From: a virus | Taxonomy: Duplodnaviria; Heunggongvirae; Uroviricota; Caudoviricetes | IMG/VR virus record: IMGVR_UViG_3300020160_002689 | Location: 20,134 to 84,133 of that record | Length of the DNA: 64,000 nt | Direction: 5' to 3' (one strand) | Part shown: one piece after another, positions 29,791 through 63,229 of the stretch | How the letters are laid out: each line of letters begins with the position of its first letter | Position numbering within the stretch: the stretch's first letter is position 1 | The notes under the pieces: generated by a model | What the model was told of the DNA's origin: nothing | What the model saw: the letters and a program-made list of their open reading frames with translations, nothing else | The model's database searches: none | Translations under genes and position numbers: made by a program

Positions 29791-29872
29791 ATTTTTTAGT
29801 TGTCCCAGATATGGTCAAGAGGTTAACATTGACCATTTCCTTAACTGTATTCCGACAGATGAACTATTTTTG

Positions 29873-29943: not shown

Positions 29944-29949
29944 ATTTGT

Positions 29950-30050: not shown

Positions 30051-30054
30051 TTTG

Positions 30055-30126: not shown

Positions 30127-30134
30127 AATTTTTG

Positions 30135-30207
30135 GGTGAAAGACGGGGCTCGAACCCGCGACAACTTGAACCACAATCAAGCACTCTACCTCTGAGCTAC
30201 AATCACC
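30135..30207 (-). tRNA. tRNA-His(GUG)-like with genomically encoded G-1
   Basis: 5' G-GTGATTG, D-stem GCTC/GAGT, loop UUGUGGU, discriminator C; two U:U mismatches in the acceptor stem (5-68, 6-67). Confidence 0.5.
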
Positions 30208-30214
30208 ATGTTTG

Positions 30215-30303
30215 GGTGTAAAACGGGATTCGAACCCGCATTAGAGATATGTCTCATTCCAGATCCACAATCTGGTCGGCTGCCTTTACCGGTTACAAAC
30301 ACC
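30215..30303 (-). tRNA. tRNA-His-like (GUG), 88 nt with extra arm
   Basis: Stem CCAGA/TCTGG with loop UUGUGGA; encoded G-1; same ACACCCAAA 3' flank as the other two His-type genes; extra GAGACATATCTC hairpin. Confidence 0.4.
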
Positions 30304-30312
30304 ATATTTGAG

Positions 30313-30385
<73 letters not shown>

Positions 30386-30392
30386 TTTTTTG

Positions 30393-30478
30393 CACAGATT
30401 AAGAGAATCGAACTCTTTACTACCACCCTAAGGTGCCAAGGTTTTGGAGACCTGGTGCATACCATTATGCTAACCCGT
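30393..30478 (-). tRNA. tRNA-like, CCA anticodon with long variable arm (possible pseudo-tRNA or unusual decoder)
   Basis: Acceptor ACGGGTT/AATCTGT, 4-nt D-loop, anticodon stem with a bulge and loop CUCCAAA, variable hairpin CACC-TTAG-GGTG, T-arm AAGAG-TTCGATT-CTCTT. Confidence 0.4.
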
Positions 30479-30893
30479 ATTTTGCTTTAAACCAATTTTG
30501 TGTTTTAGATGTTCTTTTTTTATGACAATTACCACAAACAACCTCACACTTTTCTATTTCTTCAATTATTCTTTTTATTCCATATCTTTTTGATAATGCA
30601 TCTGATATATTAAATTCTTTATCTCTTTGATGGTCAAATTCAAGTACAATTGGATCACTTTCTCCACAATCAGTACAAGAATTATTTTTTAAATAATTTA
30701 ACACATATTCTTTACTTCTAATAGTACTTTCTTTATTATGATTAAATACACATTCTTTATTTTCAGAATACCATTTTGATTGATATGATTTTCTACATAA
30801 TTTACATATATTACTATATCCGTCTTTTTTAGTTTTATTTTTATGAAATTCTAATAATTCTTTAGATTCCTTACACATAACACAATTTTTCAT
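30465..30893 (-). CDS. HNH endonuclease (zinc-finger HNH)
   Basis: N-terminal CxxC...CxxC; EFDHQRDKEFNIS ... CEVVCGNCHKKRT HNH core. Confidence 0.7.
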   Translation of the reverse strand: MKNCVMCKESKELLEFHKNKTKKDGYSNICKLCRKSYQSKWYSENKECVFNHNKESTIRSKEYVLNYLKNNSCTDCGESDPIVLEFDHQRDKEFNISDALSKRYGIKRIIEEIEKCEVVCGNCHKKRTSKTQNWFKAKYGLA

Positions 30894-31019
30894 ATTGACT
30901 TTTAATTTTTTTATATATTAAAAGTCTTTGTTCCCCCTACCGGTAACGATCCGATTTCCATAGGTTAAAAGCCTATTGCATCACCATTAATGCTTAGAGG
31001 GATTTTAATTTCTTTAAAT

Positions 31020-31784: not shown

Positions 31785-32816
31785 TTAAACTCCTGTAAAT
31801 TTAACAGTTACAATAGGAGTTGTTTCATCTAATTTAGTAATGTGTTTTTGTGTTTCTAATATAGATTTTGAATCTTTGTATGCAAAGTCAAACTCTTGTA
31901 TGATACTACTATCAAATTCACCACTTCTATTTAATAGTTCAGAGAATCTTTTCTTATAGGATTCTTTTTCACTTCTTCTCATTGAGTGCCAAAATTTTAA
32001 AGTATCAGTTCTACCTAATTTTCTACCTGCACCATGTGAACAACTTGCTAATGAATCTTCAAGGTTATATGGTTGAGGACTAACTATTAAACTACCTCTT
32101 GACATAGAAAGTGGGATAACAATAGGATCCTTTATTAACTCTGTACTTCCTTTATGATGTATAATAGAATTATCATTAAAACTCAATAAGTTATGACAAC
32201 TATCATGTATGATATAATTAGGATTTTTAATATATCCATTTCTACTTAAAAAGTTAAAACTTTTCTCTAAGAATTCATATCTTCTTTTTACTGCATAATC
32301 TAAAATTCTTTGATATTCAGTTCTATATTTTTCATCTGCAAATTCAATAGGTAACCATTCATTACCTGGATTATGTTCTTGTAACATACTATAATTTTGT
32401 TGATACATATAGATACCTAAGTTTCTACTTCCTGTATGAACTATAATGTATAAATACTTATCAGACTCTTCAATTGATAGAAAGTGATTACCACCACCTA
32501 ATCCTTCATCTGTCATTGTATAAGATTCTTTTTCAAATGCTCTATAATGAACATCTTTATCAAATCTTTTTAAGTAATCTTTTTTATCTATTTTTAAATA
32601 AGCAACACCACAACCCATATCTTTTCCAGTAATAAGTGGATAAAATACATCTGTTGTTTTGAATGAAACCCCAACTGGGATAGCTTTTTCTGAACAATAA
32701 TGTATATCAGGAAATACAGTAATTTTTTCAATATTAGATTCCTGTTCAAAGTGTTCTAAACACTTTAAAGCATTATCTTCTATATCGTTCTTATCTGTAA
32801 AATAATTTACTTTCAT
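31785..32816 (-). CDS. rtcB: RtcB-family RNA 3'-phosphate/5'-OH ligase
   Basis: PDIHYCSEKAIPVG, GKDMGCGVAY, LGGGNHFLSIEE and CSHGAGRKLGR correspond to the RtcB metal-binding and nucleotidyl-His motifs (GSGNHFIE, HNHAGR). At 343 aa it is a compact variant. Confidence 0.75.
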   Translation of the reverse strand: MKVNYFTDKNDIEDNALKCLEHFEQESNIEKITVFPDIHYCSEKAIPVGVSFKTTDVFYPLITGKDMGCGVAYLKIDKKDYLKRFDKDVHYRAFEKESYTMTDEGLGGGNHFLSIEESDKYLYIIVHTGSRNLGIYMYQQNYSMLQEHNPGNEWLPIEFADEKYRTEYQRILDYAVKRRYEFLEKSFNFLSRNGYIKNPNYIIHDSCHNLLSFNDNSIIHHKGSTELIKDPIVIPLSMSRGSLIVSPQPYNLEDSLASCSHGAGRKLGRTDTLKFWHSMRRSEKESYKKRFSELLNRSGEFDSSIIQEFDFAYKDSKSILETQKHITKLDETTPIVTVKFTGV

Positions 32817-34169: not shown

Positions 34170-34696
34170 AATTTCTAATTTTTAGTTCTGCAAATGTAGA
34201 ACAATTATTTTATTCAACCTAATTTATTTTAAAAAATATGAAGAGGGTGGAACGCCTGTTAAGTATGGCCGGAATCCGAGAGCCTAACCTTAACTTTTAT
34301 GATCTAATCACTTGGGATTGCCTTTTAATGGATTTGTGTCCTTGGTTTCGTAGTGTTACCATTCTACGCATTTAATTTCTTCATAGTGTTGGATTTAGTT
34401 TCAGTAAGTTATTTTCTTATTTATAACCTACTTTCATCTGTTTAGTTTTGAGTATCTATTACCATCACAATTTCAATACTACACCTTTACATTTTATCAT
34501 ATATTTAAGTACAAGGTAGTTCACTAATTTTATCAAAGGTGTTAACTTATTTGTTAGCTACTTACTACCATAAACATTATTAAAGTTATGTGACTTTTGT
34601 TCATTATTTATAACTGTCAACCTTAATAACTTCTTATTATTATACAAATATATAACAAAAGTTTTAATTTGAGAAATTTATTTTAATATATAAGTA

Positions 34697-50325: not shown

Positions 50326-50347
50326 TTTAATATATACTAAAAAATCA
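50326..50347 (+). promoter_or_regulatory. promoter-like motif TTTAATATATACTAAAAAATCA
   Basis: Upstream of the structural block that starts at 50358. Confidence 0.35.
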
Positions 50348-50357: not shown

Positions 50358-51851
50358 ATGGCAATTCAAAGTTCATTTCCAAAGGTAGCTGATCAAATAA
50401 TATCTTATAATAAAAATATTGTTGAAATACTATCTAAAATTAGTTCATTAACAACAACAACTGAGTCATCAGTAAACCTTCAAATATATGATGCAAATGG
50501 TGTGTTGAGAAATTTCACTATGCCTTCATTCACATCATTGAAAGGTGAGATTGATAGATTAAATAATAATATAAATTCATTGTATGGTATTGATGGTGCT
50601 GGTTCTTTAATACAAACAACAACACAAAACAAATATAAGAAACTTATCACAGTTGATTTGAATAGGGATCCTACTCCAATTAGTAGTATTGGTTTTATAT
50701 CAACCTTTAAATCAAGTCCAAACTGGTTTTTTGATTCATTAATGGATCCAATGATTTCAGTAGAATTGGACTTATCCAACAAAATTGAGGATAATGTAAG
50801 AAAATGTTTAATTAGAAGATACATTGTTGATTTTGAAAAAAATGCAGATGGTTCATTAACTACTAATGGTCAATCAGCATTAAATTCATATAATCAATTA
50901 TTTAGAGGAAATGCAAATATCATAATTTCAGAATTTGAAAATTGGCACAAAACTACTACTGGTGTTCTAAATGCTATTAATCCTAAGTTTGATGAACAGA
51001 TTTTTGATTTAGAACCAAACAACTTATTATATGATGGTCAATTTAGTGTATTGAGAATACAAGAAGATAGACTAAATAAAAAACTTTGGTGTGTATTAGA
51101 TACACTTGAATATTTAGTAGTTGATGCAGGACAAACTAAACAATTGGCTGTTGGAGATGAGTTAATTATAAATACTACTCAATCATCTACTAGATATAAA
51201 ATCATTGAAGTTTCTACTGTTGAGAGTAATCCAAGAGTTAGAGTTGAAAGATTAGAAGGAATTGAACCAATTCCAGTTGGTATTGGAACATTAAAAGTTT
51301 ATTCTGATGTTATCTATACCAAAAAATGTAGAGTGAGTGTTGGTTACAATGAAAGAAATGTTCTTTTCATTAAACCAATTAATACTGATAATCACTTAGT
51401 TGCTAAGAAATGGAGTTTAGGTACTGGTTACTATACAAATGATTTAAGATTAGATTCTACATCTACTGCAAATGGTTTGTCAATGGAACAATTCTATATT
51501 GATTATGTTTATGATTATGGTGTTGTTTTACAAGATTTAGTTGCTAAGAAAACTCCTAATGCATTAGGTGGTACTCCTGTTGCACCAGCTTTGAGTGTTG
51601 ATAACTTTAAAGTTGTTCAAATTAATAAACACCTTACTGATTCACCAGATTCTAATTTAGTTAAACAAAAACATAACTATCAGTTATCTTTAAAATCAGA
51701 GATACAACAAATACAAGAAGCAATTTTATCAAGAAATAAAACTGCTAAATTTACTAAGTATAAGTCAGATTCTGCAAAGAAACAAGCTGATTTAGAGATT
51801 GAAGGATTGGTATCTAAAAAGATAGTAAAAGTAAATTACTTGCATCAGTAA
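50358..51851 (+). CDS. structural protein, frame-0 part of a probably frameshifted gene
   Basis: 497-aa ORF ending ...GLVSKKIVKVNYLHQ*; the -1 frame is open from 51803 onward. Confidence 0.5.
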   Translation: MAIQSSFPKVADQIISYNKNIVEILSKISSLTTTTESSVNLQIYDANGVLRNFTMPSFTSLKGEIDRLNNNINSLYGIDGAGSLIQTTTQNKYKKLITVDLNRDPTPISSIGFISTFKSSPNWFFDSLMDPMISVELDLSNKIEDNVRKCLIRRYIVDFEKNADGSLTTNGQSALNSYNQLFRGNANIIISEFENWHKTTTGVLNAINPKFDEQIFDLEPNNLLYDGQFSVLRIQEDRLNKKLWCVLDTLEYLVVDAGQTKQLAVGDELIINTTQSSTRYKIIEVSTVESNPRVRVERLEGIEPIPVGIGTLKVYSDVIYTKKCRVSVGYNERNVLFIKPINTDNHLVAKKWSLGTGYYTNDLRLDSTSTANGLSMEQFYIDYVYDYGVVLQDLVAKKTPNALGGTPVAPALSVDNFKVVQINKHLTDSPDSNLVKQKHNYQLSLKSEIQQIQEAILSRNKTAKFTKYKSDSAKKQADLEIEGLVSKKIVKVNYLHQ

Positions 51852-53557
51852 CTCAAGAGATTATTGACCTTTCAAAAGATCCTAAAACTAAAGTTGATCC
51901 TCAATTTAATGTAAGAGGTTTCTGGAATATTCCAGAAGCGGTCATTACAACTGGAACTAGACCACAAGAAATTGTACAATTTAGGGTTCAGTACAGAAAA
52001 GTAAGTAAAGATGGTAAAGAATCACCAGTTGAAACTTTTTCAATAACAGATTCTCAAAGTAAAGCAGCTTTCTCTAACTGGTCTGAATATAAAACAGATG
52101 CAAGAAAGAGAGTTTACAATAGTACAACTGGTGAGTACACTTGGCAAATTGAAGATGTTACATCAGCAGATACTCCAAATATAAATCAATTTGATTTACC
52201 TATTTTACCAAATGAAAGAATTGAGTTTAGAATTAAATCAATTTCAGAAGTTGGTTGGCCAGAAGCTGCAGTAGAATCAGATTGGTCTGATATATTGACA
52301 GTAGACTTCCCAGATGACTTAAATACAGTTCTTAATGAGAATGACTTTATACTAAGAGAAGCTACTAAGGAAGACTTAAAAACAAGTATGAATGCAGAAT
52401 TATCTGCTAAAGGTTTAGATGAACACTTATCAGATACAGTAACAATTAATAATGTTACTTATCATCATGAAGCTAAGAAAGTTCTTTCTGGTTTTCAAGA
52501 TGAAAATGGTGTTTCATTAGATTTATATACTTATATTCAAAAGTTAACAGATAGAATTACTGCATTAGAAGAAAAAATCAAGAGAGCTAAAGGTGAACTT
52601 GAAATTATTATTCTTAGAAATAACCAAGAGTTTGTTGTATCAAATGGTTCAGAGACAACATTCAATGTTGAGTGTGAAGATTATTTAGATTCATATACTG
52701 CAACAGGTGCACCTACTGGTAGAGTTTATCAAAATAATATTTATATAATTAAAGACTTTATTGTTAAATTTAGAAATAAAGCAACTGAATCAGTATTAGG
52801 TTTATTATCAAATAGAAATTATATTGATGGTACAGGAAATGTTTATAATTCAACAGCACCACAAACTTTCTGGGTAAATAATCAAGATGAATTAAAAACA
52901 GTTGATGTAAGTGGTCAAACAAGAACACAACTTGATAATCAATTTATTTGGATGGTTAACTATGATTCTATTACACAAACAACAGTTTCTAAATTATCTG
53001 AAAATATTGGTAATGCATTTAATGTAGATAATTCAAACTCAGTAACTAATGTACTTTCATCAAATGAGTATAATATAGGTTACAATGAGTCATCAATACT
53101 GGCATTTATTGGTAATAATAAATCATTATTGGATCCAACAAAGTGGAATGATACTACGGTATCAGTTGCATCAACAACTAAATTCTTGACTACAATTCAT
53201 CCAGTTATTAAAGACCTTGAAAGTATTCAAGAAGTAAATAGTGATAAGATTCATACAGTTGCTGCAGGTGATAAAAATTCTATAATAGTTCCATTGAATA
53301 TTTATTTCAAGATGAACTCATTAGATAGTAGTCAAAATGGATTAAACTATCAGTATATTGATTTGAATAATTCAACTCAGACAGTTAAACATGTTAAAAA
53401 ATTAAAGTTTTTTGTAGAGAATGAATCTGAAAATAGACCATTCACCTTTACTCTTAAATTTAATTTAAACAGAAATAAAGTTGCAGTTAGAAAATTCAAT
53501 AATATAGGTGGTGGACCTGCATACATTGATGATTATTCAACAACAAGTAAAAAATAA
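51803..53557 (+). CDS. structural protein, -1-frame continuation (no ATG; the ORF-track entry starts at a TTG at 52295)
   Basis: The -1 frame is open with coding-like sequence (QEIIDLSKDPKTKVDPQFNVRGFWNIPEAV...) for 164 codons upstream of the listed start, and it contains no Met. Confidence 0.45.
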
Positions 53558-53566: not shown

Positions 53567-56500
53567 TTGAAATCATTTGCCATATTAAGAACCAATGTTG
53601 GTTTAACAACTAATATAAAAATAATGATTGATACTAACTATAAACTAAGTTTAGATAGTATTGAATCAAATATGAATTTGTCCTTTGATAAATTCAAAAA
53701 GGTCTCATTTAATAAGAGTAATTATTATGATGAGTTAATACCTTATTTTTATAAAGATTTACCAGCAGAGACTGCATATAGTATAAAATATGAGAATGAT
53801 GCAGAAACAATGTCAAATGATTTTGCTTATCAATATGATGAACTATATAATTATGGTGCAAGAAATATAGTTGATAATAAGAATTATTCAGAAGAGTATG
53901 AATACTTTGCACCTCTTTATATTACTAAAACTGGTCTTCCTAAAAAATTTATTGTATTTAGAGTAGATGGTCCAGGTATTGGAACACTAACAACTGCAAA
54001 TTTTAGAACAGATATAATTAATAAATTAAAAACAGTTAAACTATTTGATTTAACTAAAGAAAGTCTATTTGGAGAATGGTTATATACAAACTTTGTTGAT
54101 AACAAATATTTTCCTGACGCTCCATTAGAAATAGATTTTAGAAATCTTGAGTTTTGTAGATGGAATGGTATTGATTATCAAAATGGTGGTTATACTTCTA
54201 AATCATTATTTATTGATGATATTTTAGATGAAGAAAAAGAAATATTTGAACTTGAAAAGTTTGTATTTGATTCTTATAAAAATAATAAAGTTGTTTTTCC
54301 TAACATATTAAATTTATCATTTTTATTTGATGATACACCTTCTACATCAGAACAAAAAAGAAGATGGTCTATAAATAGATACTATGGATTCTACTTAGAT
54401 GATTTAGAGTTAGTAACAACAATGTCATCTTATATTCCAGTTCCTTTAAAAAGTGATATTGTTGTTCTATCAGGTGATGATAGAAATATACTATCATCAC
54501 CAAGTGGTTATCCATTTGAAGAAGTTTGGACTGATAAAAAACCTTTTTATGTAGAGTATAAAGGTAAATATTATAAAGTAGAACAATATACTGAAACTAT
54601 TACAAATCAATTAATTAAAGTTAAAAACACTAAAGGTAATACATCAGAAGATAGAATGCAAAGAGACTTAGGATTTAGTTCATCTAAAAAACAAGCATCT
54701 GCTGTTAAAATAGTCAATACTAAAGATTTAACTACTAATACAAAATCTGCAGTTGAAAATTATGGTGAAGTAATTGTAACTAAGTATAGAATAATATCTG
54801 ATTTAGATTTTGGAGGAATGACTTATTCTGACTTTAATCAAAACTTTGGTGAGATTAAAGATAATGTATTGAAAGACTTGAGTAATAAGTCAATTACTAT
54901 TGATAATTTTGAATCTGCTGATATTTGGTTAATTAACATTGATGGTATTTATCATAATTTAATTAGTAGTGGTACTAATTCAATTAGTGTTAATAGTGAT
55001 TATTCATTTCAATTTAATGAGAATAGTTATACTTATAAGGTAAATGGTGTTGAGAAAACTGTTAATACAATAGTTGATTTTAATAACCCACCTACAATAT
55101 TTAATATTTATAAGGCAAAGTTAACAGACATTAAAGACTTTGATGATAGATTAGTTGATACTGAATATTCTAAATATGAATATGAAAAACTAACAGACCT
55201 TACAAATACAGATGAAACTAAAATGTATTTTGAAGATTTGACAAGTAAAACTGATCCAAGAGATTTAGATGACTTTGTTTATAAGAATGAAGTGGTTAAA
55301 ATTCCAGTATCATCTGAGTACACTGCAAATTATGAAACTTTTAAAGTTGATGATACAACCGGTAACTTATCAGAAATATGGAGAAAGAATCCAGTTTATT
55401 GTAGATTTGGCTTTCAAAACTCAATATCAGGAAATGATGTTCCTTACTTATTAAATAACTCTTTGATATTTGAAGATTATAATAGAACTGTAAATGTTTC
55501 TGATATACATCCTAAAAGAATTGAAAGAAATTTAGATTATTTTTATACTATAAATTCTGCAACATCATCATATTTACATCATAGCTTACATATTGAAGGA
55601 TTTACTTATAGTGGTATTGATAACACATTTAAGTTTGAGTTAGATAAGTACTTAAATCAAGGAACTTACTCTTATGATTATTTTAGTTACTTCTTTAGTA
55701 AACAAACACAATTTTTAAATGGTGATATTAAAAAGAATACTAAAAAATATTCTTATTTTAATGTTGGTGATGACTCTGTTCCTAATCATAGTTTATTTAG
55801 AGGAATTAGATTTGATATTTATAAAGTAGATGGGGTTAACTTAAACTCTAATAATCAAATTGATAAAATTAACATATCAACAAATAATGAATTTGTAGAT
55901 TATAAAATGTCTGTTTTATTATCTGATAATGATTGGTCAATTACTAATACTATACCTGCATCATTAACACAATCTGTAAGTACTTTAGAATGGACTATAA
56001 TTGATGAGTGGAAAATGGATAAAATATATGCATCAGGTTCTGTTGTAATATTTGATGATATTTTATTTAAGAATACTAATGGAACTAAAGATCCTTGTGG
56101 TCCTACAACTAAAATTACCATAAATCAACAGGAATACCATGTTTTATCAAATCCTGCTAACCAAGGTTGGTCTATTTATAGTGATGTTCCTACTAATAGA
56201 GAGATATTTTGGTCACCTGGAAATTCAAATACAAATGGAAGTTTTGTGTATAATTCAGGTGAATATTATGTAGAAAATACTATACCTACCCAAACAAGTT
56301 CACAATATTATAGTTCACCTGCAATTGGTATAAGTAACTTGATACCTTATACTATAGATTTTTGGAAACCTTCTAATCAATATGCAACTGGAAGTATTGT
56401 AATGTATAATAATAAAGTTTTTATATCCAATACAAATAATAATATTTTTCATCCTAATCAAAGTCAATGGGTTGATATATCCACTATTAATAATTTCAAT

Positions 56501-57844
56501 TCAACTGTAACATATTCTAAATCTGATATTGTTAAAAGTAATAATTATTACTATATATCATTAACAAGTAGTAATGTTAATACTTTAAACCCACCTGCAT
56601 GGGAAATTTCATCAAGAGTTCCTTTATCAAGTTTTTTTAAATGGAAATTAGTTGAAATTTGGAATCCTAATAAATCATATATTACAGGATCTTATGTTGT
56701 TCATAATGAAATATTATATAATAATTCATTTACAATATTACCAGGTTTAGAACCAGGTATTTACAATGGTTGGGAAAGAAGATATAGTTTAATACCAGAT
56801 ACAGATTTTAAATATAATATAAACTATACAGAAGATAATACAAATGGAAATCCAATTATTTTACTAAATGATAAGTATTATTTATCAACTAATAAATCAA
56901 TAGAATCAACACTTGATAATGGTATTATAATCTATATCAATAAAAAGTGGAAAAACATATTAGTTAATATAAATATATCAGATAATACATATACTAATGT
57001 TTCATCTACTAATAGAGATGATCTTTATAATGAATTGTATAAAAAATTAACTGCCACTAATTTTATGGCAGCAATAAATGATATAACTAATAAGTATGGA
57101 TTTACTGATTATGTATCTTATGTAGTTATTGATGAAGATAATACAATTAATAAATATAGTTATACTAATAACATTGTTAATCTACCTTATATAATTAAGT
57201 GTGAAGGACCTGATAGTTTAGATGTTAAAATACAATCTTTATTAAAGAGACCTATTTTCTTACCCAATCCATTGAATCCAATTAAAAAGTTGGAAAGTGG
57301 AAAAATATTAAATATTGACCAGTTAAATTTTTATAATGGTAATCCAGTTGGTGTTAATATAATTGAGAATCAATTTGCACCTAAGGTCACTGAAAACTAT
57401 CATGGTTCAAAAAATATTTTAAAAGATACTATTTATAGATTTAGTGGTTATTATATGCCATTATTTTATGATATAGAATTATTTAAAAGAGATTATGAGT
57501 ATAAACAAACTGGTAATTATTTATTTGATACTACACTAACAAACTTTGGTATTATAAAAGAAAGAAAAGTTCGAAAAATAAATAGAAAAGGAAGTATTTT
57601 AAAATTAAAAGATAATCCAGATGAGAAATCAATTTATCCAATGTTAGATGAATTTGGTTATTCTATTTATGACTTTTTTATTTTCTCATCAACTTGGGAT
57701 TTAAAGTATTATTTAGAAACATCTACACTAACTAAAGCAAATAAAGACTATTTAGAGAAATATACAATAGATGAAAATATTGTAAATAACAATAATATAG
57801 TAATACCTATTACAATACCAACAAATATTGGACCATCAAATTAA
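53567..57844 (+). CDS. very large structural protein (baseplate/tail-fibre class)
   Basis: 1425 aa, N/T/S/Y-rich; follows the structural genes. Confidence 0.6.
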   Translation: MKSFAILRTNVGLTTNIKIMIDTNYKLSLDSIESNMNLSFDKFKKVSFNKSNYYDELIPYFYKDLPAETAYSIKYENDAETMSNDFAYQYDELYNYGARNIVDNKNYSEEYEYFAPLYITKTGLPKKFIVFRVDGPGIGTLTTANFRTDIINKLKTVKLFDLTKESLFGEWLYTNFVDNKYFPDAPLEIDFRNLEFCRWNGIDYQNGGYTSKSLFIDDILDEEKEIFELEKFVFDSYKNNKVVFPNILNLSFLFDDTPSTSEQKRRWSINRYYGFYLDDLELVTTMSSYIPVPLKSDIVVLSGDDRNILSSPSGYPFEEVWTDKKPFYVEYKGKYYKVEQYTETITNQLIKVKNTKGNTSEDRMQRDLGFSSSKKQASAVKIVNTKDLTTNTKSAVENYGEVIVTKYRIISDLDFGGMTYSDFNQNFGEIKDNVLKDLSNKSITIDNFESADIWLINIDGIYHNLISSGTNSISVNSDYSFQFNENSYTYKVNGVEKTVNTIVDFNNPPTIFNIYKAKLTDIKDFDDRLVDTEYSKYEYEKLTDLTNTDETKMYFEDLTSKTDPRDLDDFVYKNEVVKIPVSSEYTANYETFKVDDTTGNLSEIWRKNPVYCRFGFQNSISGNDVPYLLNNSLIFEDYNRTVNVSDIHPKRIERNLDYFYTINSATSSYLHHSLHIEGFTYSGIDNTFKFELDKYLNQGTYSYDYFSYFFSKQTQFLNGDIKKNTKKYSYFNVGDDSVPNHSLFRGIRFDIYKVDGVNLNSNNQIDKINISTNNEFVDYKMSVLLSDNDWSITNTIPASLTQSVSTLEWTIIDEWKMDKIYASGSVVIFDDILFKNTNGTKDPCGPTTKITINQQEYHVLSNPANQGWSIYSDVPTNREIFWSPGNSNTNGSFVYNSGEYYVENTIPTQTSSQYYSSPAIGISNLIPYTIDFWKPSNQYATGSIVMYNNKVFISNTNNNIFHPNQSQWVDISTINNFNSTVTYSKSDIVKSNNYYYISLTSSNVNTLNPPAWEISSRVPLSSFFKWKLVEIWNPNKSYITGSYVVHNEILYNNSFTILPGLEPGIYNGWERRYSLIPDTDFKYNINYTEDNTNGNPIILLNDKYYLSTNKSIESTLDNGIIIYINKKWKNILVNINISDNTYTNVSSTNRDDLYNELYKKLTATNFMAAINDITNKYGFTDYVSYVVIDEDNTINKYSYTNNIVNLPYIIKCEGPDSLDVKIQSLLKRPIFLPNPLNPIKKLESGKILNIDQLNFYNGNPVGVNIIENQFAPKVTENYHGSKNILKDTIYRFSGYYMPLFYDIELFKRDYEYKQTGNYLFDTTLTNFGIIKERKVRKINRKGSILKLKDNPDEKSIYPMLDEFGYSIYDFFIFSSTWDLKYYLETSTLTKANKDYLEKYTIDENIVNNNNIVIPITIPTNIGPSN

Positions 57845-57852
57845 GAATAAAA

Positions 57853-58542
57853 ATGAGAAGAAGTTATATATCACCAGAGTATCAAACTAAAGCAGTATAT
57901 GGAACATTAAACATGCTTGAAGAAAGTACATTTTTTGGTGCAAAGATGTTAGAAATAGAAGATAGTATAGTTATAGATACTTTAGATATAATATACTATC
58001 AGAATCAGAATGGTGAACAATTGGACCTTTCAATTGAATCATCATTTGCATCTATTGTTTACTCATCTAGTGATAATAAAAAAAGTAATCATACTTTAGT
58101 TTTAGATCCATCTCAACCAAAATTTCAATTAGATAATAATACAAGATGGATATTAACAATAGATTTAAAGACCATAATAACAGATTACCTATTTGCAACA
58201 CTTAAAAAGTTTAGAACTTTTGAAGGTATTAAAAATGACATGAATATTTATGCAAATACAGATACTGCAATTAAAAGTTACATAAATTATAATATTCTTA
58301 ATAGATACAGATATAAAAGTATTCAATTATATGTGAACTATGTGGATTTGAGAAACCAAAATGCACTTAGATATAAAAATACTTGGGATAAAAATTCTAT
58401 AAATACTTCTAATCTTTTAACTAAGTTACAAACTGAAACTGAGTTTGATGAGTCTTCAATTAAAGTTACTTTTAATCAGGAAAAACCAAGTTCAACTTAT
58501 AGATTTGATTATTATTTTAACATTTTATTTGAGAAAATATAA
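57853..58542 (+). CDS. hypothetical (structural-associated) protein
   Basis: 229 aa; 9 nt after the giant ORF. Confidence 0.45.
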   Translation: MRRSYISPEYQTKAVYGTLNMLEESTFFGAKMLEIEDSIVIDTLDIIYYQNQNGEQLDLSIESSFASIVYSSSDNKKSNHTLVLDPSQPKFQLDNNTRWILTIDLKTIITDYLFATLKKFRTFEGIKNDMNIYANTDTAIKSYINYNILNRYRYKSIQLYVNYVDLRNQNALRYKNTWDKNSINTSNLLTKLQTETEFDESSIKVTFNQEKPSSTYRFDYYFNILFEKI

Positions 58543-58572: not shown

Positions 58573-58920
58573 ATGAATGAAGAGTTTCAAAACAATCTTG
58601 TAAATTTTCTAAAACTATTTAAAAATAGACCTTATCATCTTGCTAAGTATCTAATAGATAACTCTGCATTAACAAAAGATTTTTATAATAAAATATCTAA
58701 ATCAGATAAATTAGAAAACAATAAGTATTTCACAGATATAACAGAAATGAATGAATTTTATAATTCAATTTTGGATATAAAGAAGTCTAAAAAGTCTGTA
58801 GAAGAGATTACTAAAGAAGCTAATATTAAAATGGATCAGCTTATTAAGAATGAAAATTTTGAAGAAGCTGCAAAACTTAGAGATTATATGACAAAAAATA
58901 AAATAAAAAGATTGAGATAA
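58573..58920 (+). CDS. hypothetical protein with UVR motif
   Basis: FEEAAKLRDYM matches the UvrB/C (UVR) motif. Confidence 0.4.
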   Translation: MNEEFQNNLVNFLKLFKNRPYHLAKYLIDNSALTKDFYNKISKSDKLENNKYFTDITEMNEFYNSILDIKKSKKSVEEITKEANIKMDQLIKNENFEEAAKLRDYMTKNKIKRLR

Positions 58921-58972: not shown

Positions 58973-60064
58973 ATGACACAAAATGAAATTTTAAACCCAG
59001 AATTAGGTAACCCAGACTTTGACCTTTTATATGCAGAAGATACATATAAAAAAGGACAAAAGTTACAAGATAAATACCTTGATTCACTTTATGACTCTAT
59101 TCAAATAGAGACCCCTTCTGCTGGTTCAGTAGTAAGATCTACTTATTTGGGTATGATGTCCAATCAATATGTGTTCAGTGTTGTTGGTTACAAAGATGAT
59201 GTTCGTATTGAGAACAAACCAGGTGAAGCAAAATATCTTAACTCCATTGAAGTTGGAGAACAAGTTGATTTGTTAATCACTGAGGTAGTACAAAGTACTT
59301 ACTTCATCAAAGGAAGTATTGCTTCTTTATATGAATCTAGAGCTCATGAAAATATGAAGTCTTTAGAGGAAGGAGAATCAGTAACTGCTTATATTAGAGC
59401 ATTAAACCCTGCAGGTTATGATGTAGAGTTGACAAATGGAGGAGTTACTCTTCCTGCATTTATGCCTAATACCTTAGCAGGTATCAACAAACTTTATGAC
59501 CCAAGTTCTATTATTGGAGATACATTCCAAGTAATGGTTGAGTCATTCTCTGAACACGAAGGAACTTACATAGTAAGTCGTAGAAAGTATCTACAAAGCT
59601 TGATTCCTGATGAAATCAGTAATCTTGAGTTTAATACTCTATATTCAGGTAGAGTTACTGGTACTACACCATTTGGTATCTTTGTTGAGTTTAATGAATG
59701 TCTAACAGGTATGATCCACAAAGCTAATGTAACAGAAGAGTGGCAAAACAGAATTTCTGAAATCAAACCGGGACAACAAATTGAATTCTATATCAAAGAA
59801 ATCATTAAAGATAAAATTATACTTACTCAAGTTTTGAGAGAAACTTTGTGGGATAATATCAAAAATGGTCAATTGATTGAAGGTAGAGTAAAAGATGTTA
59901 AACAATTTGGTACTTTAGTTATCTTAGATGATGAAACAGTTGGATTAATCCACACATCAGAAATGGAGAAACTTGGTAAGAGATTCACATCTGGACAAGA
60001 TATTAGAGTGAAAGTTTTGAGTGTTGACCGCTCATCAAGAAAAATCTTTCTTACTCTTGGATAA
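58973..60064 (+). CDS. S1-domain protein (ribosomal protein S1-like, multiple S1 repeats)
   Basis: Repeated S1 cores (GRVTGTTPFGIFVEF...GMIHKANV; GQLIEGRVKDVKQFGTLVILDDETVGLIHTSEM; GEQVDLLITEVVQST). Confidence 0.65.
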   Translation: MTQNEILNPELGNPDFDLLYAEDTYKKGQKLQDKYLDSLYDSIQIETPSAGSVVRSTYLGMMSNQYVFSVVGYKDDVRIENKPGEAKYLNSIEVGEQVDLLITEVVQSTYFIKGSIASLYESRAHENMKSLEEGESVTAYIRALNPAGYDVELTNGGVTLPAFMPNTLAGINKLYDPSSIIGDTFQVMVESFSEHEGTYIVSRRKYLQSLIPDEISNLEFNTLYSGRVTGTTPFGIFVEFNECLTGMIHKANVTEEWQNRISEIKPGQQIEFYIKEIIKDKIILTQVLRETLWDNIKNGQLIEGRVKDVKQFGTLVILDDETVGLIHTSEMEKLGKRFTSGQDIRVKVLSVDRSSRKIFLTLG

Positions 60065-60077: not shown

Positions 60078-60112
60078 TAAAGGCCTCATATTTTAATATG
60101 AGGCCTTTTTTA
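60078..60112 (+). terminator. rho-independent terminator
   Basis: AAGGCCTCATAT-ttta-ATATGAGGCCTT followed by TTTTTT. Confidence 0.65.
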
Positions 60113-60242
60113 TATTTCTATTTGTATAACTACATAATGGTTGAAAATTTTTATAATGATTCAATCTATAAATATCTTCTTTGGATTTGGCACTTGACAT
60201 TTTTTCATAACATATATATTAAAAAAATCTTTCTTCCCTAAA

Positions 60243-60279
60243 TAAAAAAACCTCATATGAAAATATGAGGTTTTTTTTA
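60243..60279. terminator. terminator hairpin (paralog of 60078)
   Basis: AACCTCATAT-gaaa-ATATGAGGTT followed by T8; shares the CCTCATAT...ATATGAGG core with the other hairpin. Confidence 0.55.
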
Positions 60280-60606: not shown

Positions 60607-62508
60607 TTACTTTTTACCTTTTTTGTCAGTAGTTTCTTCAACTGCTGGAATGTCAATAACATTACTATTATTTGCAGGTTTCATACCTTTACCCATCATT
60701 TCCATGATTTGCATCCCAAGTAATCCATCTAATGAACCATTACCACCTTGTCCACCACCATTGATTAATAAGTCAGGCATAATTTTCACTTTACCTTTAC
60801 CAATCTCTTCTGTTACTTTGAATGTAGTAAAGTTATCTTTACCCATTGCATTAACTGCTAATTCATATGCCTTAGCAGTTGAAGTACCTACTGCCAAGAT
60901 AGCATTTGCATCAGCTTCTCCAAGAAGAGTTTTCTTAGTAGCTTCAGCTTCAGCATTTAATTTAGTTGCCTCAGCATTAGCTTCAGCTGCAATTTTTACT
61001 GAGCTTGCAGCACCAGTTGCTTTTTTAACTTCTGCATCTGCAATTTTTTCAGAAATCTCAACACCTTGATTTGCTTTTACAACTTCACTTTGCATATCTG
61101 CAATTGCAGTCTCTTTTTCAAGAGTTTGTCTTTGGATTTGAGCCATTTTTTGTGTCTCATAAGTTGTTTTTTGTTCTTCTGCAATTTTACGATCAGTTAA
61201 TGTTTTCATCAATGATTCTGGTGGTGTAATATCACCAATTAATGTATCAACTGCATGAACATTGTACTCTTCAAGTACAGATGAAATAGCTTGTTTAGCA
61301 GCATCTTGTCTTGATTGACGAGTAGATAAGAATGCAATAACATCTGAATTTTGTGCAGAGTTACGGAAGTAGTTACCAATTGTTGGCTCTAATACTTGAG
61401 ATACAAGTGCTTGTGTAGAACCAAAACGTGCAATTACTTTTGGAGCTTCTGCCATAGGAATATGAATAATTTGAGATACATCTAAGTTAAATGGGAAACC
61501 ATCTTTAGAACGTACAGTAATTGTACTCAATCCTTTATCTAAATTATGAGATTCAGTTCTTGCATTTGCCCAGTTAAGTACAAGGTTAGTTGTAGGTACA
61601 ATCTCAATTGTATTAGTATATACATTAATTGCATATTTACCAGGTCCTAATGGTTCGGCCCAAACACCTTTTTGTCCTTTAGATACTAAGTTACCATGTT
61701 TAAATCCAGCACCAGTTACATCAACACCATCTGCACCAACATAAGAAATAACAACACCACAATGACCAATTGGAATTTCTGTCATTTGTACTTCTTCAAC
61801 TTGAACAGCCCAAGGATTAAGGTTGTAAGATCCTGCTTGAATAACTTGAGTTTGTAAACCTCTGTTACCACCACTTGATAAGAATGTATCAAAATCTTGA
61901 AAGTTATTATGTCCTTCCACTTTATCACCAGCAATTTGGTCTTTACTAAGTGGCTCACCATCTAATGTAGTAACAATACCCACCATATTCTCTTGTACAC
62001 TTACTTGTTTTGTAGTTGATATTTCAAATAAGAATGTATTGATTTTATAACTACCATTTGTAATATAAGCTGCTTGACGGCCTTTCTGACCACCATTTTT
62101 AATAAATGCTTCTGCATCTTGATAATCTTCACACTCAACTCTACGACCTAAGATACGTCCTGTTTGTGGAACTTTACCATCTTTAGCTGAAATCAAACCA
62201 ATGTGTCCTTCTGGAATAACTATAAATCCTTGCATATCAACAGAGTATTGCCAAGGCCACATCCACCAGTGTAAACCGGTCTCTAACATTTTTGCTTGTA
62301 AACCTGCTTCTCCATTTACTGCAATAATTCTATCACCACTTAATTCTTTGTTTGCACCAAAAAGAACAAACTTTTTTGTTACTAGACCAACTTTGTTCTC
62401 AGGAACAATAACCAATCCGAAAAATACTCTTAGTATAAATTTATACAATACTAAAGAGAACACAAGGGCAATAGCCCACCAATAATTAGCTAAAAAGTCT
62501 AATACCAT
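60607..62508 (-). CDS. SPFH/Band-7 flotillin-like membrane protein
   Basis: N-terminal transmembrane helix, PHB/SPFH core, long Ala/Glu/Lys heptad coiled-coil (AEAEATKK repeats) and a Gly-rich C-terminus; 633 aa. Confidence 0.7.
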   Translation of the reverse strand: MVLDFLANYWWAIALVFSLVLYKFILRVFFGLVIVPENKVGLVTKKFVLFGANKELSGDRIIAVNGEAGLQAKMLETGLHWWMWPWQYSVDMQGFIVIPEGHIGLISAKDGKVPQTGRILGRRVECEDYQDAEAFIKNGGQKGRQAAYITNGSYKINTFLFEISTTKQVSVQENMVGIVTTLDGEPLSKDQIAGDKVEGHNNFQDFDTFLSSGGNRGLQTQVIQAGSYNLNPWAVQVEEVQMTEIPIGHCGVVISYVGADGVDVTGAGFKHGNLVSKGQKGVWAEPLGPGKYAINVYTNTIEIVPTTNLVLNWANARTESHNLDKGLSTITVRSKDGFPFNLDVSQIIHIPMAEAPKVIARFGSTQALVSQVLEPTIGNYFRNSAQNSDVIAFLSTRQSRQDAAKQAISSVLEEYNVHAVDTLIGDITPPESLMKTLTDRKIAEEQKTTYETQKMAQIQRQTLEKETAIADMQSEVVKANQGVEISEKIADAEVKKATGAASSVKIAAEANAEATKLNAEAEATKKTLLGEADANAILAVGTSTAKAYELAVNAMGKDNFTTFKVTEEIGKGKVKIMPDLLINGGGQGGNGSLDGLLGMQIMEMMGKGMKPANNSNVIDIPAVEETTDKKGKK

Positions 62509-62555: not shown

Positions 62556-63155
62556 TCAACAAATCACTTTTTGAAATTGGTCTTTTTTATAAAAAACTCC
62601 ATCTTCTATAGATAAATCATCACAAGTATTATTAAGATATATTCTACCACATAATTTTATTAAGTAACTTTCCGGAAAGTTACTCTTTAGTTTATTTATA
62701 TCTCTATGTACCCATTGTACATTAGTTTTGATATATCCTAATGTACTATCAATTCTATCTAAAGTTGCAGTTTTATATTTCTTACTACCACATTTCTTAT
62801 TGAAATAAATTTCTATATTTGATAGTTTACATTTCTTATTTTGTTTTAAAAATAAATTCCATAAAAAATCAATATCTAAATCAAAATCTAATTTTCTATA
62901 TCTTGCACTTGATTTTATAGTTGTAAATAAATCAGAAGGTATCTCACCAGAACCCCTCCAAGATTTATGATTATATCCAAAATTACTATCATTATACTTA
63001 TCTATACATCCTTTACAATAGGTCTGATTCTTTATCTGAGAATTTCTAAAAGAATATACCCTACCACAATTATGTTCTGCTAACCAATAACCTTTCTTAT
63101 CTACTTTTTCAATTAATTTAAATCCATTTATTATATCATTTTCTTTCCATTTCAT
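62556..63155 (-). CDS. HNH homing endonuclease
   Basis: ATLDRIDSTLGYIKTNVQWVHRDINKLK is an HNH core as in I-HmuI-type enzymes. Confidence 0.6.
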   Translation of the reverse strand: MKWKENDIINGFKLIEKVDKKGYWLAEHNCGRVYSFRNSQIKNQTYCKGCIDKYNDSNFGYNHKSWRGSGEIPSDLFTTIKSSARYRKLDFDLDIDFLWNLFLKQNKKCKLSNIEIYFNKKCGSKKYKTATLDRIDSTLGYIKTNVQWVHRDINKLKSNFPESYLIKLCGRIYLNNTCDDLSIEDGVFYKKDQFQKVIC

Positions 63156-63229
63156 AAAATAGTTTTAATTTTATATATTAAATACATAACACTACCTTAT
63201 AAAAAATTATCTACTATGTATTTATATTT

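What the first reader, a model, noticed from the sequence alone, without database searches (positions are those of the whole stretch)
58973..60064. Phage-encoded ribosomal protein S1-like protein
A 363-aa protein made of several S1 RNA-binding repeats. It resembles a truncated bS1 and lies at the end of the structural block. Phage-borne S1 homologs have been noted in metagenomic surveys but have not been functionally characterised. It may redirect ribosomes to AT-rich, Shine-Dalgarno-poor phage mRNAs.
Basis: partly seen in the sequence, partly recalled or inferred. Interest (0 to 1): 0.5.

Follow-up and report, generated by a model that had tools for sequence, protein, structure and literature searches.

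The report
Shortened ribosomal protein S1 in megaphage
A giant bacteriophage carries its own four-domain, shortened copy of ribosomal protein S1, the protein that helps ribosomes capture messenger RNA; such genes have already been reported in huge phages, their function is still untested, and this copy keeps the parts that S1 uses to sit on the ribosome.

Summary
The ORF is real: 58973..60064 on the + strand, 363 aa, under purifying selection (dN/dS about 0.1). It has four OB/S1 folds and aligns collinearly with E. coli bS1 residues 15-345.

Pfam S1 detects only the two C-terminal domains. The two N-terminal domains match only bS1 D1 and D2, the ribosome-binding pair. That separates this protein from generic S1-domain proteins.

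The window is a piece of a Mahaphage-type huge phage: 28% GC, 21 tRNAs, and best matches to the 634-735 kb phages of Al-Shayeb et al. 2020. Those phages are predicted to infect Bacteroidota.

The protein belongs to a large, monophyletic phage family. About 140 clusters at 50% identity score E<=1e-30. Some databases already name members "ribosomal protein S1".

Al-Shayeb et al. already reported possible rpS1 genes in SD-poor huge phages and proposed ribosome hijacking. So the finding is a new member of a known kind.

This analysis adds three things:
- The Lys43 loop and the OB2 aromatic pocket are conserved.
- The N-terminus is a two-helix segment resembling the 30S anchor of Bacteroidia bS1.
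- The gene is the last one of a unit that ends at a strong terminator.

On-ribosome action is likely but unproven. Selectivity for phage mRNA has no support, because Bacteroidota hosts are SD-less too.

The parts
58973..60064 (+). Gene for the 363-aa phage bS1-like protein, stop codon included
   Evidence: ORF listing. bS1 homology. dN/dS 0.11 against relative L065.
59009..59056 (+). N-terminal aromatic/acidic segment, residues 13-28 (NPDFDLLYAEDTYKKG). Candidate counterpart of helix 1 of the Bacteroidia bS1 30S anchor (F[DN]Wxx[FY]ExG).
   Evidence: Family consensus G-[ND]-P-x-[FLW]-x-x-[LIV]-[FY]-E-E, with F/Y in 43 of 52. Bacteroidota motif present in 108 of 120 bS1 N-termini. F. johnsoniae helix 11-20 is seen on the 30S. 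Similarity is weak for this sequence: 3.7 bits, with ambiguous register. Low pLDDT.
59063..59101 (+). Helix at residues 31-43 (LQDKYLDSLYDSI) directly before D1. Positional counterpart of the bS1 N-terminal uS2-anchoring helix.
   Evidence: AF2 helix 31-42. The family profile aligns it with E. coli QLFEESL and F. johnsoniae LQEFEELV. Bacteroidales bS1 reads LTKTYDESLNTV. Role of the helix in E. coli.
59120..59326 (+). OB domain 1 (residues 50-118), specific counterpart of bS1 D1. Contains K74 (59192-59194), equivalent to E. coli Lys43.
   Evidence: Family D1 profile scores 24.6 bits on E. coli D1 and <=10.7 on D2-D6. K at the Lys43 column in 49 of 53 members. Lys43 inserts into the uS2 zinc pocket.
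59369..59587 (+). OB domain 2 (residues 133-205), specific counterpart of bS1 D2. Motif AFMPNTLAGINKL. Y149 and F163 are equivalent to E. coli F120 and F130.
   Evidence: Family D2 profile scores 38.8 bits on E. coli D2 and <=8.1 on the other domains. Y/F in 52 of 53 and F in 50 of 53. OB2 pocket described.
59630..59836 (+). OB domain 3 (residues 220-288), canonical S1 RNA-binding domain with F234, F237 and H249.
   Evidence: PF00575 E=3.3e-10. The most conserved domain of the family. Aromatic/His positions kept.
59864..60061 (+). OB domain 4 (residues 298-363), canonical S1 domain. F312 and H327 are kept; the second aromatic is replaced by L315.
   Evidence: PF00575 E=1.2e-10. Residue mapping. 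This domain is absent from the Lak phage homologue.
60079..60108 (.). 13-bp G+C-containing hairpin followed by a T-run, 15 nt after the stop codon. Bidirectional intrinsic-terminator-like site that closes the + strand unit.
   Evidence: Terminator scan. Sequence.
58573..58920 (+). 115-aa protein with a UvrB/UvrC (UVR) motif, directly upstream. Conserved partner gene in relatives.
   Evidence: PF02151 E=4e-8. Homologues directly upstream of the S1 gene in L001, L002 and L003 and in L065.
53567..58542 (+). Two upstream genes of the same unit (1425 aa and 229 aa), separated by 8-52 nt gaps with no terminator. Putative virion or tail proteins, unproven.
   Evidence: ORFs. No terminator between them. 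The N-terminal domain of the 1425-aa protein is shared with Lak, Tenacibaculum, Chryseobacterium and Sphingomonas PAU jumbo phages. No Pfam or PHROG structural hit.

Best explanation
The gene encodes a phage version of ribosomal protein bS1, cut down to the functional core: an N-terminal two-helix anchor, the ribosome-binding domains D1 and D2, and two canonical RNA-binding S1 domains.

Shown: it is a bS1 homologue with D1- and D2-specific similarity. It is a member of a large family confined to huge phages of the Mahaphage/Lak type. It is the last gene of a multigene + strand unit.

Inferred: during infection of a Bacteroidota host, the protein docks on the 30S platform at the site of host bS1, contacting uS2 and uS8 next to the mRNA exit. 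Docking would use the N-terminal helices, the Lys74 loop and D2. Domains D3-D4 would hold the A/U-rich, SD-less leaders of mRNAs and feed them into the mRNA channel. The protein would thus supplement or replace the loosely bound host bS1 when large amounts of phage protein are made. Whether it favours phage mRNAs over host mRNAs is open.
For: Identity:
- Collinear with E. coli bS1 15-345 (E=1.4e-23) and with rpsA models.
- Best Foldseek hits are bS1 chains on E. coli 30S complexes (9gut_B, E=4e-23, 362 columns).
- Four OB folds in the AF2 model.

bS1-specific parts:
- Family D1 and D2 profiles each match only E. coli D1 and D2.
- The Lys43 equivalent is K in 49 of 53 members.
- The OB2 pocket residues F120 and F130 are kept as Y149 and F163.
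- The D3 RNA face is intact.
- These residues contact uS2 or mRNA in E. coli.

Anchor:
- AF2 predicts a helix-loop-helix before D1.
- Bacteroidia bS1 residues 4-40 form a helix-loop-helix bound to uS2 and uS8.
- Its two motifs recur in real Bacteroidota bS1 (108 of 120) and, in degenerate form, in the phage family.
- 20 of 53 phage N-termini exceed the 95th percentile of shuffles, where 2.7 are expected. Lak reads SFNWTPYEDG, P0134 reads ENFDWDA, and L001 scores 13.6 bits.

Sufficiency:
- E. coli S1 lacking D5-D6 supports near-normal growth, and D1-D3 retain 30S binding, mRNA binding and melting.

Context:
- Only 2 of 59 window genes have any SD-like 4-mer, and leaders are 60-70% A at positions -9 to -18.
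- Relatives encode an L7/L12 C-terminal-domain protein 2-4 kb away.
- Phage bS21 sets a precedent for late, structural-module expression in Bacteroidota phages.
Against: - No binding data exist for any member of the family.
- The protein scores far below every curated rpsA cut-off (109.5 bits against 577).
- The N-terminal similarity to Bacteroidia bS1 is weak for this particular protein: 3.7 bits, between the 95th and 99th percentile of shuffles. Its register is ambiguous.
- In the helix next to D1, the position equivalent to the essential E. coli Phe5 is Leu36. Only the Phe9 equivalent (Tyr40) is aromatic.
- The same D1 surfaces also bind Qbeta replicase, so their conservation could reflect a non-ribosomal partner.
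- A D1-D2 tree does not place the phage clade with Bacteroidota: 18 of 200 bootstraps.
- The host is predicted, not known.
- Host mRNAs are SD-less too, so no basis for selectivity is evident.
Confidence: 0.5

Rival explanations
1. Off-ribosome RNA-binding protein or chaperone. It binds A/U-rich phage transcripts free in the cytoplasm, melting structure or shielding them from host RNases, as proposed for the short S1 homologues of Firmicutes and for single-S1 regulators such as GSP13/CvfD.
For: S1 domains are widespread outside ribosomal proteins. Al-Shayeb et al. explicitly left 'on or off the ribosome' open. D3 and D4 are the best-scoring and best-conserved parts. GSP13/CvfD models also hit. 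The length, about 360-390 aa with four domains, resembles Firmicutes S1 (NF005208, 86.8 bits).
Against: D1 and D2 carry no canonical RNA face, yet they are retained in all 53 family members analysed. They are specifically bS1-D1/D2-like, with the Lys43 loop nearly invariant. In Firmicutes-type S1 the first domain differs strongly from E. coli D1. A free chaperone would not need an N-terminal anchor segment conserved across a family with about 30% identity.
Confidence: 0.22
2. Dominant competitor that shuts off host translation. It occupies the bS1 site on uS2 but, lacking D5-D6, fails on host mRNAs that need full-length bS1, so ribosomes are freed for phage messages.
For: Same anchor evidence as the main explanation. 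Truncated S1 variants still bind ribosomes while mRNA recruitment is perturbed. The ribosome-hijack model was proposed for huge phages.
Against: E. coli S1 lacking D5-D6 is nearly fully functional, so loss of these domains alone is a weak basis for discrimination. No feature separating phage leaders from host leaders was found.
Confidence: 0.12
3. Accessory subunit of a phage enzyme, such as an RNA polymerase, RNase or recombination protein. It would use the D1-D2 surface as Qbeta replicase, T4 RegB and lambda Beta use host S1.
For: Qbeta replicase binds the N-terminal helix, Asp39 and Lys43 of S1, competing with uS2. Phage uses of host S1 are listed. The adjacent conserved UVR-motif protein is a candidate protein partner.
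Against: No RNA replicase or RegB-like gene was seen next to the gene in the window or in relatives. The known cases exploit host S1 rather than a phage copy.
Confidence: 0.08
4. Virion-associated protein. It would be made with the tail genes, packaged, and injected so that it acts on ribosomes at the very start of infection, or it has a purely structural OB-fold role.
For: It is the last gene of a unit with very large uncharacterised proteins. In relatives the homologue follows baseplate-hub and tape-measure-like genes (L005) or a tail-tube-like gene family (L003, L004, L066, L068).
Against: The tail-tube assignment is weak (phrog_45, E=1e-4, one of four members). The ancestry is clearly bS1 and the RNA-binding residues are retained. 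No virion proteome exists for this clade.
Confidence: 0.05

Closest known systems
'Possible rpS1' proteins of huge phages (Al-Shayeb et al. 2020, Nature 578:425; Mahaphage clade including Lak phages)
   Same: Same family. Best matches are in LR745206 (65% identity), LR756502 (60%), LR756504, LR756501/3 and LR756500, with a partial match in Lak. Same SD-poor genomes and the same proposed role. Predicted Bacteroidetes hosts.
   Different: The paper did not resolve whether these are 'true' rpS1. The D1/D2-specific homology, the Lys43 loop and OB2 pocket conservation, the N-terminal two-helix segment and the gene context are worked out only here. This window is a different genome, about 75% DNA identity over a 3.2-kb stretch (13% of the 24-kb query; the rest found no DNA match at that sensitivity) to LR745206.
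E. coli bS1 (rpsA, 557 aa, six domains), in particular the S1 delta-5-6 truncation
   Same: Collinear with residues 15-345, that is D1-D4. Lys43, F120, F130 and the D3 RNA face are conserved. S1 lacking D5-D6 is functional, and D1-D3 is the minimal active core.
   Different: About 20-25% identity. A 30-residue N-terminal extension is present. The Phe5 equivalent is not aromatic in the helix next to D1. The phage D3 resembles E. coli D4/D5 more than D3. Below the curated family cut-off.
Bacteroidia bS1 (F. johnsoniae, PDB 9zcd_A; Bacteroidales rpsA, about 590-600 aa)
   Same: Predicted host lineage. N-terminal helix-loop-helix anchor bound to uS2 and uS8, whose two motifs resemble the phage N-terminus. 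GYK[SD]D loop in D1. Stimulates initiation on SD-less mRNAs.
   Different: Six domains against four. Not the closest cellular sequence by score, and not sister to the phage clade in a D1-D2 tree.
Phage-encoded bS21 of Bacteroidetes phages (Chen et al. 2022)
   Same: A ribosomal initiation protein encoded by phages of SD-blind hosts, located in a structural-gene region, expressed late, and proposed to substitute into host ribosomes. bS21 neighbours bS1 on the 30S.
   Different: A different protein, and a different, smaller group of phages. Transcription data exist for bS21 and none for S1.
bS1 of Microcystis jumbo phage PhiMa05 (2026)
   Same: A phage-encoded bS1 annotated in a cultivated jumbo phage.
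   Different: It is part of a six-ribosomal-protein set apparently acquired from a Vampirovibrio-like host, so a recent capture. The megaphage family is an old, monophyletic and highly diversified phage clade. PhiMa05 did not appear among the phage matches.
Short S1 homologues of Firmicutes (four domains) and cyanobacteria/chloroplasts (three domains)
   Same: Similar size and domain number (NF005208 alignment 12-346 of 391; chloroplast S1 hits).
   Different: In those proteins the first domain differs strongly from E. coli D1, and ribosome binding is doubtful for Firmicutes. Here D1 and D2 are specifically bS1-like.

Membership tests
Ribosomal protein bS1 (rpsA) | Tandem S1/OB-fold domains (four to six) | tested here: met
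   Four OB barrels in the AF2 model. PF00575 on D3 and D4. Collinear alignment to bS1.
Ribosomal protein bS1 (rpsA) | Divergent N-terminal domains D1 and D2 that are specific to bS1 and bind the ribosome | tested here: met
   Family D1 profile: 24.6 bits on E. coli D1 against <=10.7 on the other domains. D2 profile: 38.8 bits on E. coli D2 against <=8.1.
Ribosomal protein bS1 (rpsA) | N-terminal anchoring helix with two aromatic residues that stack on uS2 Phe32 (E. coli Phe5 and Phe9) | tested here: inconclusive
   A helix at 31-42 precedes D1, with Tyr40 at the Phe9 position but Leu36 at the Phe5 position. A second upstream segment FDLLYAE fits FxxLFEE. Both are short motifs and the register is ambiguous.
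Ribosomal protein bS1 (rpsA) | Lys43 loop of D1 that inserts into the uS2 zinc pocket | tested here: met
   K74 in GYKDD aligns with E. coli GLKSE and Bacteroidales GYKSD. K in 49 of 53 family members.
Ribosomal protein bS1 (rpsA) | Score above the curated equivalog cut-off (TIGR00717 and the PRK06299 series) | tested here: not met
   109.5 bits against a cut-off of 577. All rpsA models are far below their cut-offs.
Ribosomal protein bS1 (rpsA) | Physical, exchangeable association with the 30S subunit and stimulation of initiation | not testable with these tools
   Needs co-sedimentation, cryo-EM and initiation assays.
Ribosomal protein bS1 (rpsA) | Placement inside the cellular bS1 tree, near the host lineage | tested here: not met
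   NJ tree on D1-D2 with 74 sequences. The phage family is monophyletic in 200 of 200 bootstraps and sister to Bacteroidota in only 18 of 200. Distances to all bacteria are saturated. Cellular sampling was small and biased.
Megaphage S1-like family ('possible rpS1' of huge phages) | Full-length homology to the roughly 350-420-aa proteins encoded on Mahaphage/Lak-type genomes | tested here: met
   31-65% identity over 79-96% of the length to LR745206, LR756500-4. 99% identical copies on contigs of 587-656 kb. About 140 clusters at 50% identity with E<=1e-30.
Pfam S1 domain (PF00575) | Score above the gathering threshold | tested here: met
   76.9 bits against 22.
Firmicutes-type four-domain S1 (PRK06676) | Equivalog score, and a first domain unlike E. 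coli D1 | tested here: not met
   86.8 bits against a cut-off of 368. The first domain is specifically D1-like.

The most novel reading that the evidence does not exclude
The megaphage protein is a genuine, exchangeable 30S subunit component. Using a Bacteroidia-type two-helix anchor plus D1-D2, it displaces host bS1 from uS2/uS8. It is produced together with tail-module genes, or even carried in the virion. It then changes which mRNAs the SD-blind host ribosome initiates on. That would be the first demonstrated virus-encoded mRNA-recruitment subunit of a bacterial ribosome. The conserved upstream UVR-motif protein would be a co-factor.
Probability: 0.3. Interest if true: 0.7.

Novelty: new member of a known kind. 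Interest (0 to 1): 0.42.

Why it matters
Ribosomal proteins were long taken as the line between cells and viruses. bS1 is the protein that recruits mRNA in bacteria that do not use Shine-Dalgarno pairing. If the megaphage copy really docks on host 30S subunits, it would show how the largest known phages take hold of translation initiation.

The question is now directly testable. An in vitro initiation system and cryo-EM of F. johnsoniae 30S subunits with the bS1 N-terminus resolved already exist. The residues named here (F16, Y20, Y40, K74, Y149, F163) give concrete mutants.

The gene itself is not a discovery. The family is already annotated and was already discussed in 2020.

Tried and rejected
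- PHROGs gave nothing for the protein.
- The scan of GTDB genomes could use only two peptide patterns, so it gave a biased set of cellular S1-domain genes and no Bacteroidota rpsA. The Muribaculaceae hit (L055) was not an rpsA locus.
- I first read the helix next to D1 as the only anchor. I then found that MAFFT placed the E. coli helix on the more N-terminal segment instead, while the profile placed it on the D1-proximal helix. I therefore report both and call the register ambiguous.
- A Bacteroidota origin was tested and is not supported by overall similarity. The family profile scores E. coli and an unnamed 563-aa bS1 above F. johnsoniae. The NJ tree gives 9% support for a sister relation.
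- The first bootstrap script timed out.
- I tried to name the conserved roughly 205-aa upstream neighbour of distant homologues. There was no PDB hit with a profile, and only one weak PHROG 'tail tube' hit.
- Contamination by a bacterial rpsA is rejected. All close DNA and protein matches are complete huge-phage genomes, and the neighbours are phage genes.
- Alternative genetic code is not indicated. Long ORFs tile the window under table 11.
Full report
OBSERVATION. An ATG-initiated ORF occupies exactly 58973..60064 on the + strand and encodes 363 residues. The window averages about 28% G+C, so an open frame of 1092 nt is not expected by chance. Compared with the same gene on a 587-kb relative (L065), 4.4% of bases differ but only 1.7% of residues, giving dN/dS about 0.11. 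The exact or near-exact protein occurs in many metagenomes, on contigs up to 656 kb, and JGI calls it 'ribosomal protein S1'.

HOW MANY REPEATS, AND WHICH. Pfam PF00575 matches the whole protein at E=1.6e-21, with two stretches that pass alone. Scanned as four separate pieces, D3 (E=3e-10) and D4 (E=1e-10) are canonical S1 domains. D1 and D2 give no Pfam hit at all.

Even so, the curated rpsA models align collinearly over residues 38-362 (TIGR00717 positions 6-342 of 516, 109.5 bits). This is far below the equivalog cut-off of 577. E. coli bS1 aligns over its residues 15-345, that is D1 to D4 (E=1.4e-23).

An AlphaFold2 model built on 47 family members has pLDDT 86.3 and pTM 0.68. It shows four five-stranded OB barrels and, before them, a low-confidence short helix (16-19) and a helix at 31-42. 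Its best matches among solved structures are bS1 chains on E. coli 30S complexes (9gut_B, E=4e-23 over 362 columns).

The decisive test for 'true bS1 or generic S1-repeat protein' used per-domain profiles of the phage family against the six E. coli domains:
- Phage D1 matches only E. coli D1 (24.6 bits, others <=10.7).
- Phage D2 matches only E. coli D2 (38.8 bits, others <=8.1).
- The two C-terminal domains match D3-D6 promiscuously, D4 best.

So the protein is D1 plus D2 plus two canonical RNA-binding S1 domains.

WHAT REPLICON. The window carries 21 tRNA genes. It also encodes RtcB, an NAD-dependent DNA ligase, a DEAD-box helicase and DNA methylases. The protein's best phage matches are the complete 634, 642, 636, 735 and 462-kb genomes LR745206 and LR756500-4 (65 to 32% identity), with a partial match in Lak megaphages. 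DNA similarity to LR745206 reaches 75%. Al-Shayeb et al. place these genomes and Lak in the Mahaphage clade and predict Bacteroidetes hosts. The neighbouring 1425-aa protein shares its N-terminal domain with Lak, Tenacibaculum and Chryseobacterium jumbo phages, which fits that host range.

THE FAMILY. An exhaustive search of 1.84 billion cluster representatives gave 3878 hits. Of these, 140 had E<=1e-30. Nearly all of the top 150 are full-length proteins of 350-420 aa. Proteins of cellular bS1 length (563-811 aa) appear only from about 1e-38, at about 30% identity.

A neighbour-joining analysis was run on the D1-D2 region: 74 sequences, comprising 53 phage members, 7 named Bacteroidota, E. coli, Thermaceae, Spirochaetes, Omnitrophota and others. 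The phage family is monophyletic in 200 of 200 bootstraps. It is sister to Bacteroidota in only 18 of 200, and distances are saturated. This is therefore an old, diversified phage lineage of bS1, not a recent capture from the host. The cellular sample was small and biased, so the origin stays open.

The Lak homologue lacks D4 and so equals D1-D3. UniProt/BFVD already holds members named '30S ribosomal protein S1 [uncultured marine phage]' (44% identity, TM 0.65).

WHAT IS ALREADY PUBLISHED. Mizuno et al. 2019 mention earlier metagenomic hints of viral bS1 and set S1-domain hits aside as ambiguous. Al-Shayeb et al. 2020 list S1 among huge-phage ribosomal proteins. [quoted passage not shown] They also state that true rpS1 is hard to confirm. 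A 2026 paper describes a bS1 in the cultivated jumbo cyanophage PhiMa05 as part of a recently acquired ribosomal-protein set. My searches found no functional study of a phage S1.

FEATURES THAT BEAR ON RIBOSOME BINDING. These are inferred from sequence. In E. coli, bS1 is anchored by an N-terminal helix whose Phe5 and Phe9 stack on uS2 Phe32 (both essential), and by Lys43 of D1 inserting into the uS2 zinc pocket. D2 residues Lys117, Phe120 and Phe130 form a pocket near the mRNA exit.

Mapped onto 53 family members:
- The Lys43 column is K in 49 (K74 here, in GYKDD; Bacteroidales bS1 reads GYKSD).
- Phe120 is Y or F in 52 (Y149 here).
- Phe130 is F in 50 (F163 here).
- The D3 RNA-face residues Tyr205, Phe208 and His219 are kept as F234, F237 and H249.
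- In D4 the second aromatic is replaced by Leu.

The N-terminus contains two conserved segments:
- NPDFDLLYAED(TYKKG), residues 13-28. The family consensus is G-[ND]-P-x-[FLW]-x-x-[LIV]-[FY]-E-E, with F or Y in 43 of 52.
- The helix LQDKYLDSLYDSI, residues 31-43, directly before D1. The family profile aligns this with E. coli QLFEESL and F. johnsoniae LQEFEELV.

A 2026 cryo-EM study shows that F. johnsoniae bS1 residues 4-40 form a helix-loop-helix stably bound to uS2 and uS8, with helix 11-20 reading FLANFNWHNF (sequence confirmed in PDB 9zcd_A). Real Bacteroidota bS1 N-termini (Alistipes, Flavobacterium, Dysgonomonas, Prevotellaceae, Muribaculaceae and others) carry F[DN]Wxx[FY][EQ]xG in 108 of 120 cases. 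It is followed 13-17 residues later by L..TYD[EQ][ST]LN.

The phage family shows the same two-part layout. Lak reads SFNWTPYEDG ... SYAQELYDAY, P0134 reads ENFDWDA, and LR745206 reads DDLCKLYESTMVE. A profile of the Bacteroidota N-termini scores 20 of 53 phage N-termini above the 95th percentile of composition-matched shuffles (2.7 expected) and 5 above the 99th. This window's protein scores only 3.7 bits, and the register of its first segment is ambiguous. I rate this as suggestive, not proven.

SUFFICIENCY OF FOUR DOMAINS. In E. coli, deleting D5-D6 barely affects growth. D1-D3 retain 30S binding, mRNA binding and melting activity. A D1-D4 protein, and even the three-domain Lak version, would therefore be competent in principle.

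GENE CONTEXT. The gene follows genes of 1425, 229 and 115 aa on the same strand, with gaps of 8, 30 and 52 nt and no terminator-like site between them. A 13-bp hairpin with a T-run lies 15 nt after the stop codon, at 60079-60108. An over-represented intergenic motif, TTAATATATA, occurs 18 times against 2.7 expected and precedes many genes, but not this one. So the gene is probably the last cistron of a longer unit.

The upstream proteins have no recognisable structural domains, so 'structural block' is not shown in this window. Relatives give more:
- In LR756500 the homologue follows a baseplate-hub gene (phrog_37871 E=4e-13; phrog_430 E=6e-12) and a tape-measure-like gene.
- In four divergent lineages it follows a conserved roughly 205-aa gene with one weak tail-tube hit.
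- The 115-aa UVR-motif protein directly upstream is conserved in LR745206, LR756502, LR756504 and L065.
- Close relatives also encode a protein with an L7/L12 C-terminal domain 2-4 kb away.

Phage bS21 in Bacteroidetes phages likewise sits among structural genes and is expressed late.

TRANSLATION SIGNALS. Of 59 non-overlapping ATG genes in the window, only 2 have any SD-like 4-mer at positions -20 to -4. Random positions give 6%. G is depleted to 2-8%. A reaches 60-70% at -9 to -18, and 66-69% at -3 and -4.

This is the Bacteroidia mode of initiation. The anti-SD is sequestered by bS21, bS18 and bS6, and upstream adenines enhance translation. bS1 stimulates initiation on SD-less mRNAs and is loosely bound and sub-stoichiometric on purified ribosomes. 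Hence the correlation 'S1-carrying phages lack SD' is most simply a host-lineage effect. SD-poverty gives no obvious basis for discriminating phage mRNAs from host mRNAs.

MECHANISM AND VERDICT.
- Shown: a conserved, selected, four-domain bS1 homologue with bS1-specific D1 and D2, belonging to a large megaphage family.
- Inferred, about 50%: it docks at the host bS1 site and recruits A/U-rich leaders, supplementing or replacing host bS1 during heavy phage protein synthesis.
- Rivals: a free RNA chaperone or protector (about 22%), a dominant competitor that shuts off host translation (about 12%), a cofactor of a phage enzyme using the D1-D2 surface as Qbeta replicase does (about 8%), and a virion-associated protein (about 5%).

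It is a new member of a known kind. Interest is moderate, mainly because the hypothesis is now directly testable with existing Bacteroidia translation and cryo-EM systems.

Noticed in passing
window, 18 sites, e.g. 14720-14729 (+), 16966-16975 (+), 19908-19917 (+), 34683-34692 (+), 50327-50336 (+), 11299-11308 (-), 12744-12753 (-), 63172-63181 (-): The 10-mer TTAATATATA occurs 18 times against 2.7 expected (0 of 100 shuffles reach 18). At the sites I inspected it is intergenic and points toward the next gene, often 4-26 nt before the ATG. It is probably a phage promoter element. It does not resemble the sigma-70 consensus or the Bacteroidota TAnnTTTG -7 element (the latter from my own knowledge).
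   Followed up: partly
window 50358..51851 and 52295..53557 (frame change at about 51816-51820): These two ORFs are one 1066-aa gene in a close relative (L065 1431-4631). In the window an A-run is one base shorter (A5 against A6, in TCT-AAAAA(A)-G), which shifts the frame. This could be an assembly error, a pseudogene or a slippage site.
   Followed up: partly
window 10575-13516 and 29281-31002 (- strand); 31785..32816 (-): There are 21 tRNA genes in two clusters with several duplicates (Glu x3, His x3, Gly x2, Tyr x2, Phe x2, Trp x2, Lys x2). One has an abnormal anticodon-loop call (11730-11801). His (89 nt), Trp (87 nt) and Arg (86 nt) genes are unusually long. An RtcB RNA ligase gene lies next to the second cluster.
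   Followed up: no
L065 15228-15644 (-) and L001 12234-12698 (-); the corresponding position lies just beyond window base 64000: Close relatives encode a 137-153-aa protein whose N-terminal part matches the L7/L12 C-terminal domain (PF00542, 29-30 bits, above the 25.9 cut-off). It lies 2-4 kb from the S1 gene, so two ribosomal-protein-like genes sit in one neighbourhood.
   Followed up: partly
window 58573..58920 (+): A 115-aa protein with a UvrB/UvrC (UVR) interaction motif lies directly upstream of the S1 gene. The same arrangement is conserved in LR745206, LR756502, LR756504 and L065. It is a possible partner protein of unknown role.
   Followed up: partly
window 60093..60200 (-), 60213-60222 (-), 60244-60277: A 35-aa ORF starts 12 nt after a copy of the TTAATATATA motif and lies between two strong hairpins (60079-60108 and 60244-60277). 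It could be a tiny independently transcribed gene or a small RNA opposite the end of the S1 unit.
   Followed up: no
window 60607..62508 (-): A 633-aa membrane-anchored SPFH/Band 7 (flotillin-like) protein with a long coiled, Ala/Glu/Lys-rich C-terminal half. It is conserved near the S1 gene in LR756502 and L065.
   Followed up: no
L008 (JALOAD010000029.1, 43-kb contig binned as Candidatus Muiribacterium halophilum MAG), match at 3001-3978: A 60%-identical homologue of the phage S1 sits on a contig assigned to a bacterial MAG. Most likely it is a mis-binned megaphage contig rather than a cellular gene.
   Followed up: no
window 62556..63155 (-): A 199-aa HNH/endonuclease VII-like protein (phrog_3322, E=3.5e-23). 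It also hits families annotated as Srd anti-sigma factor or sigma-70 decoy.
   Followed up: no
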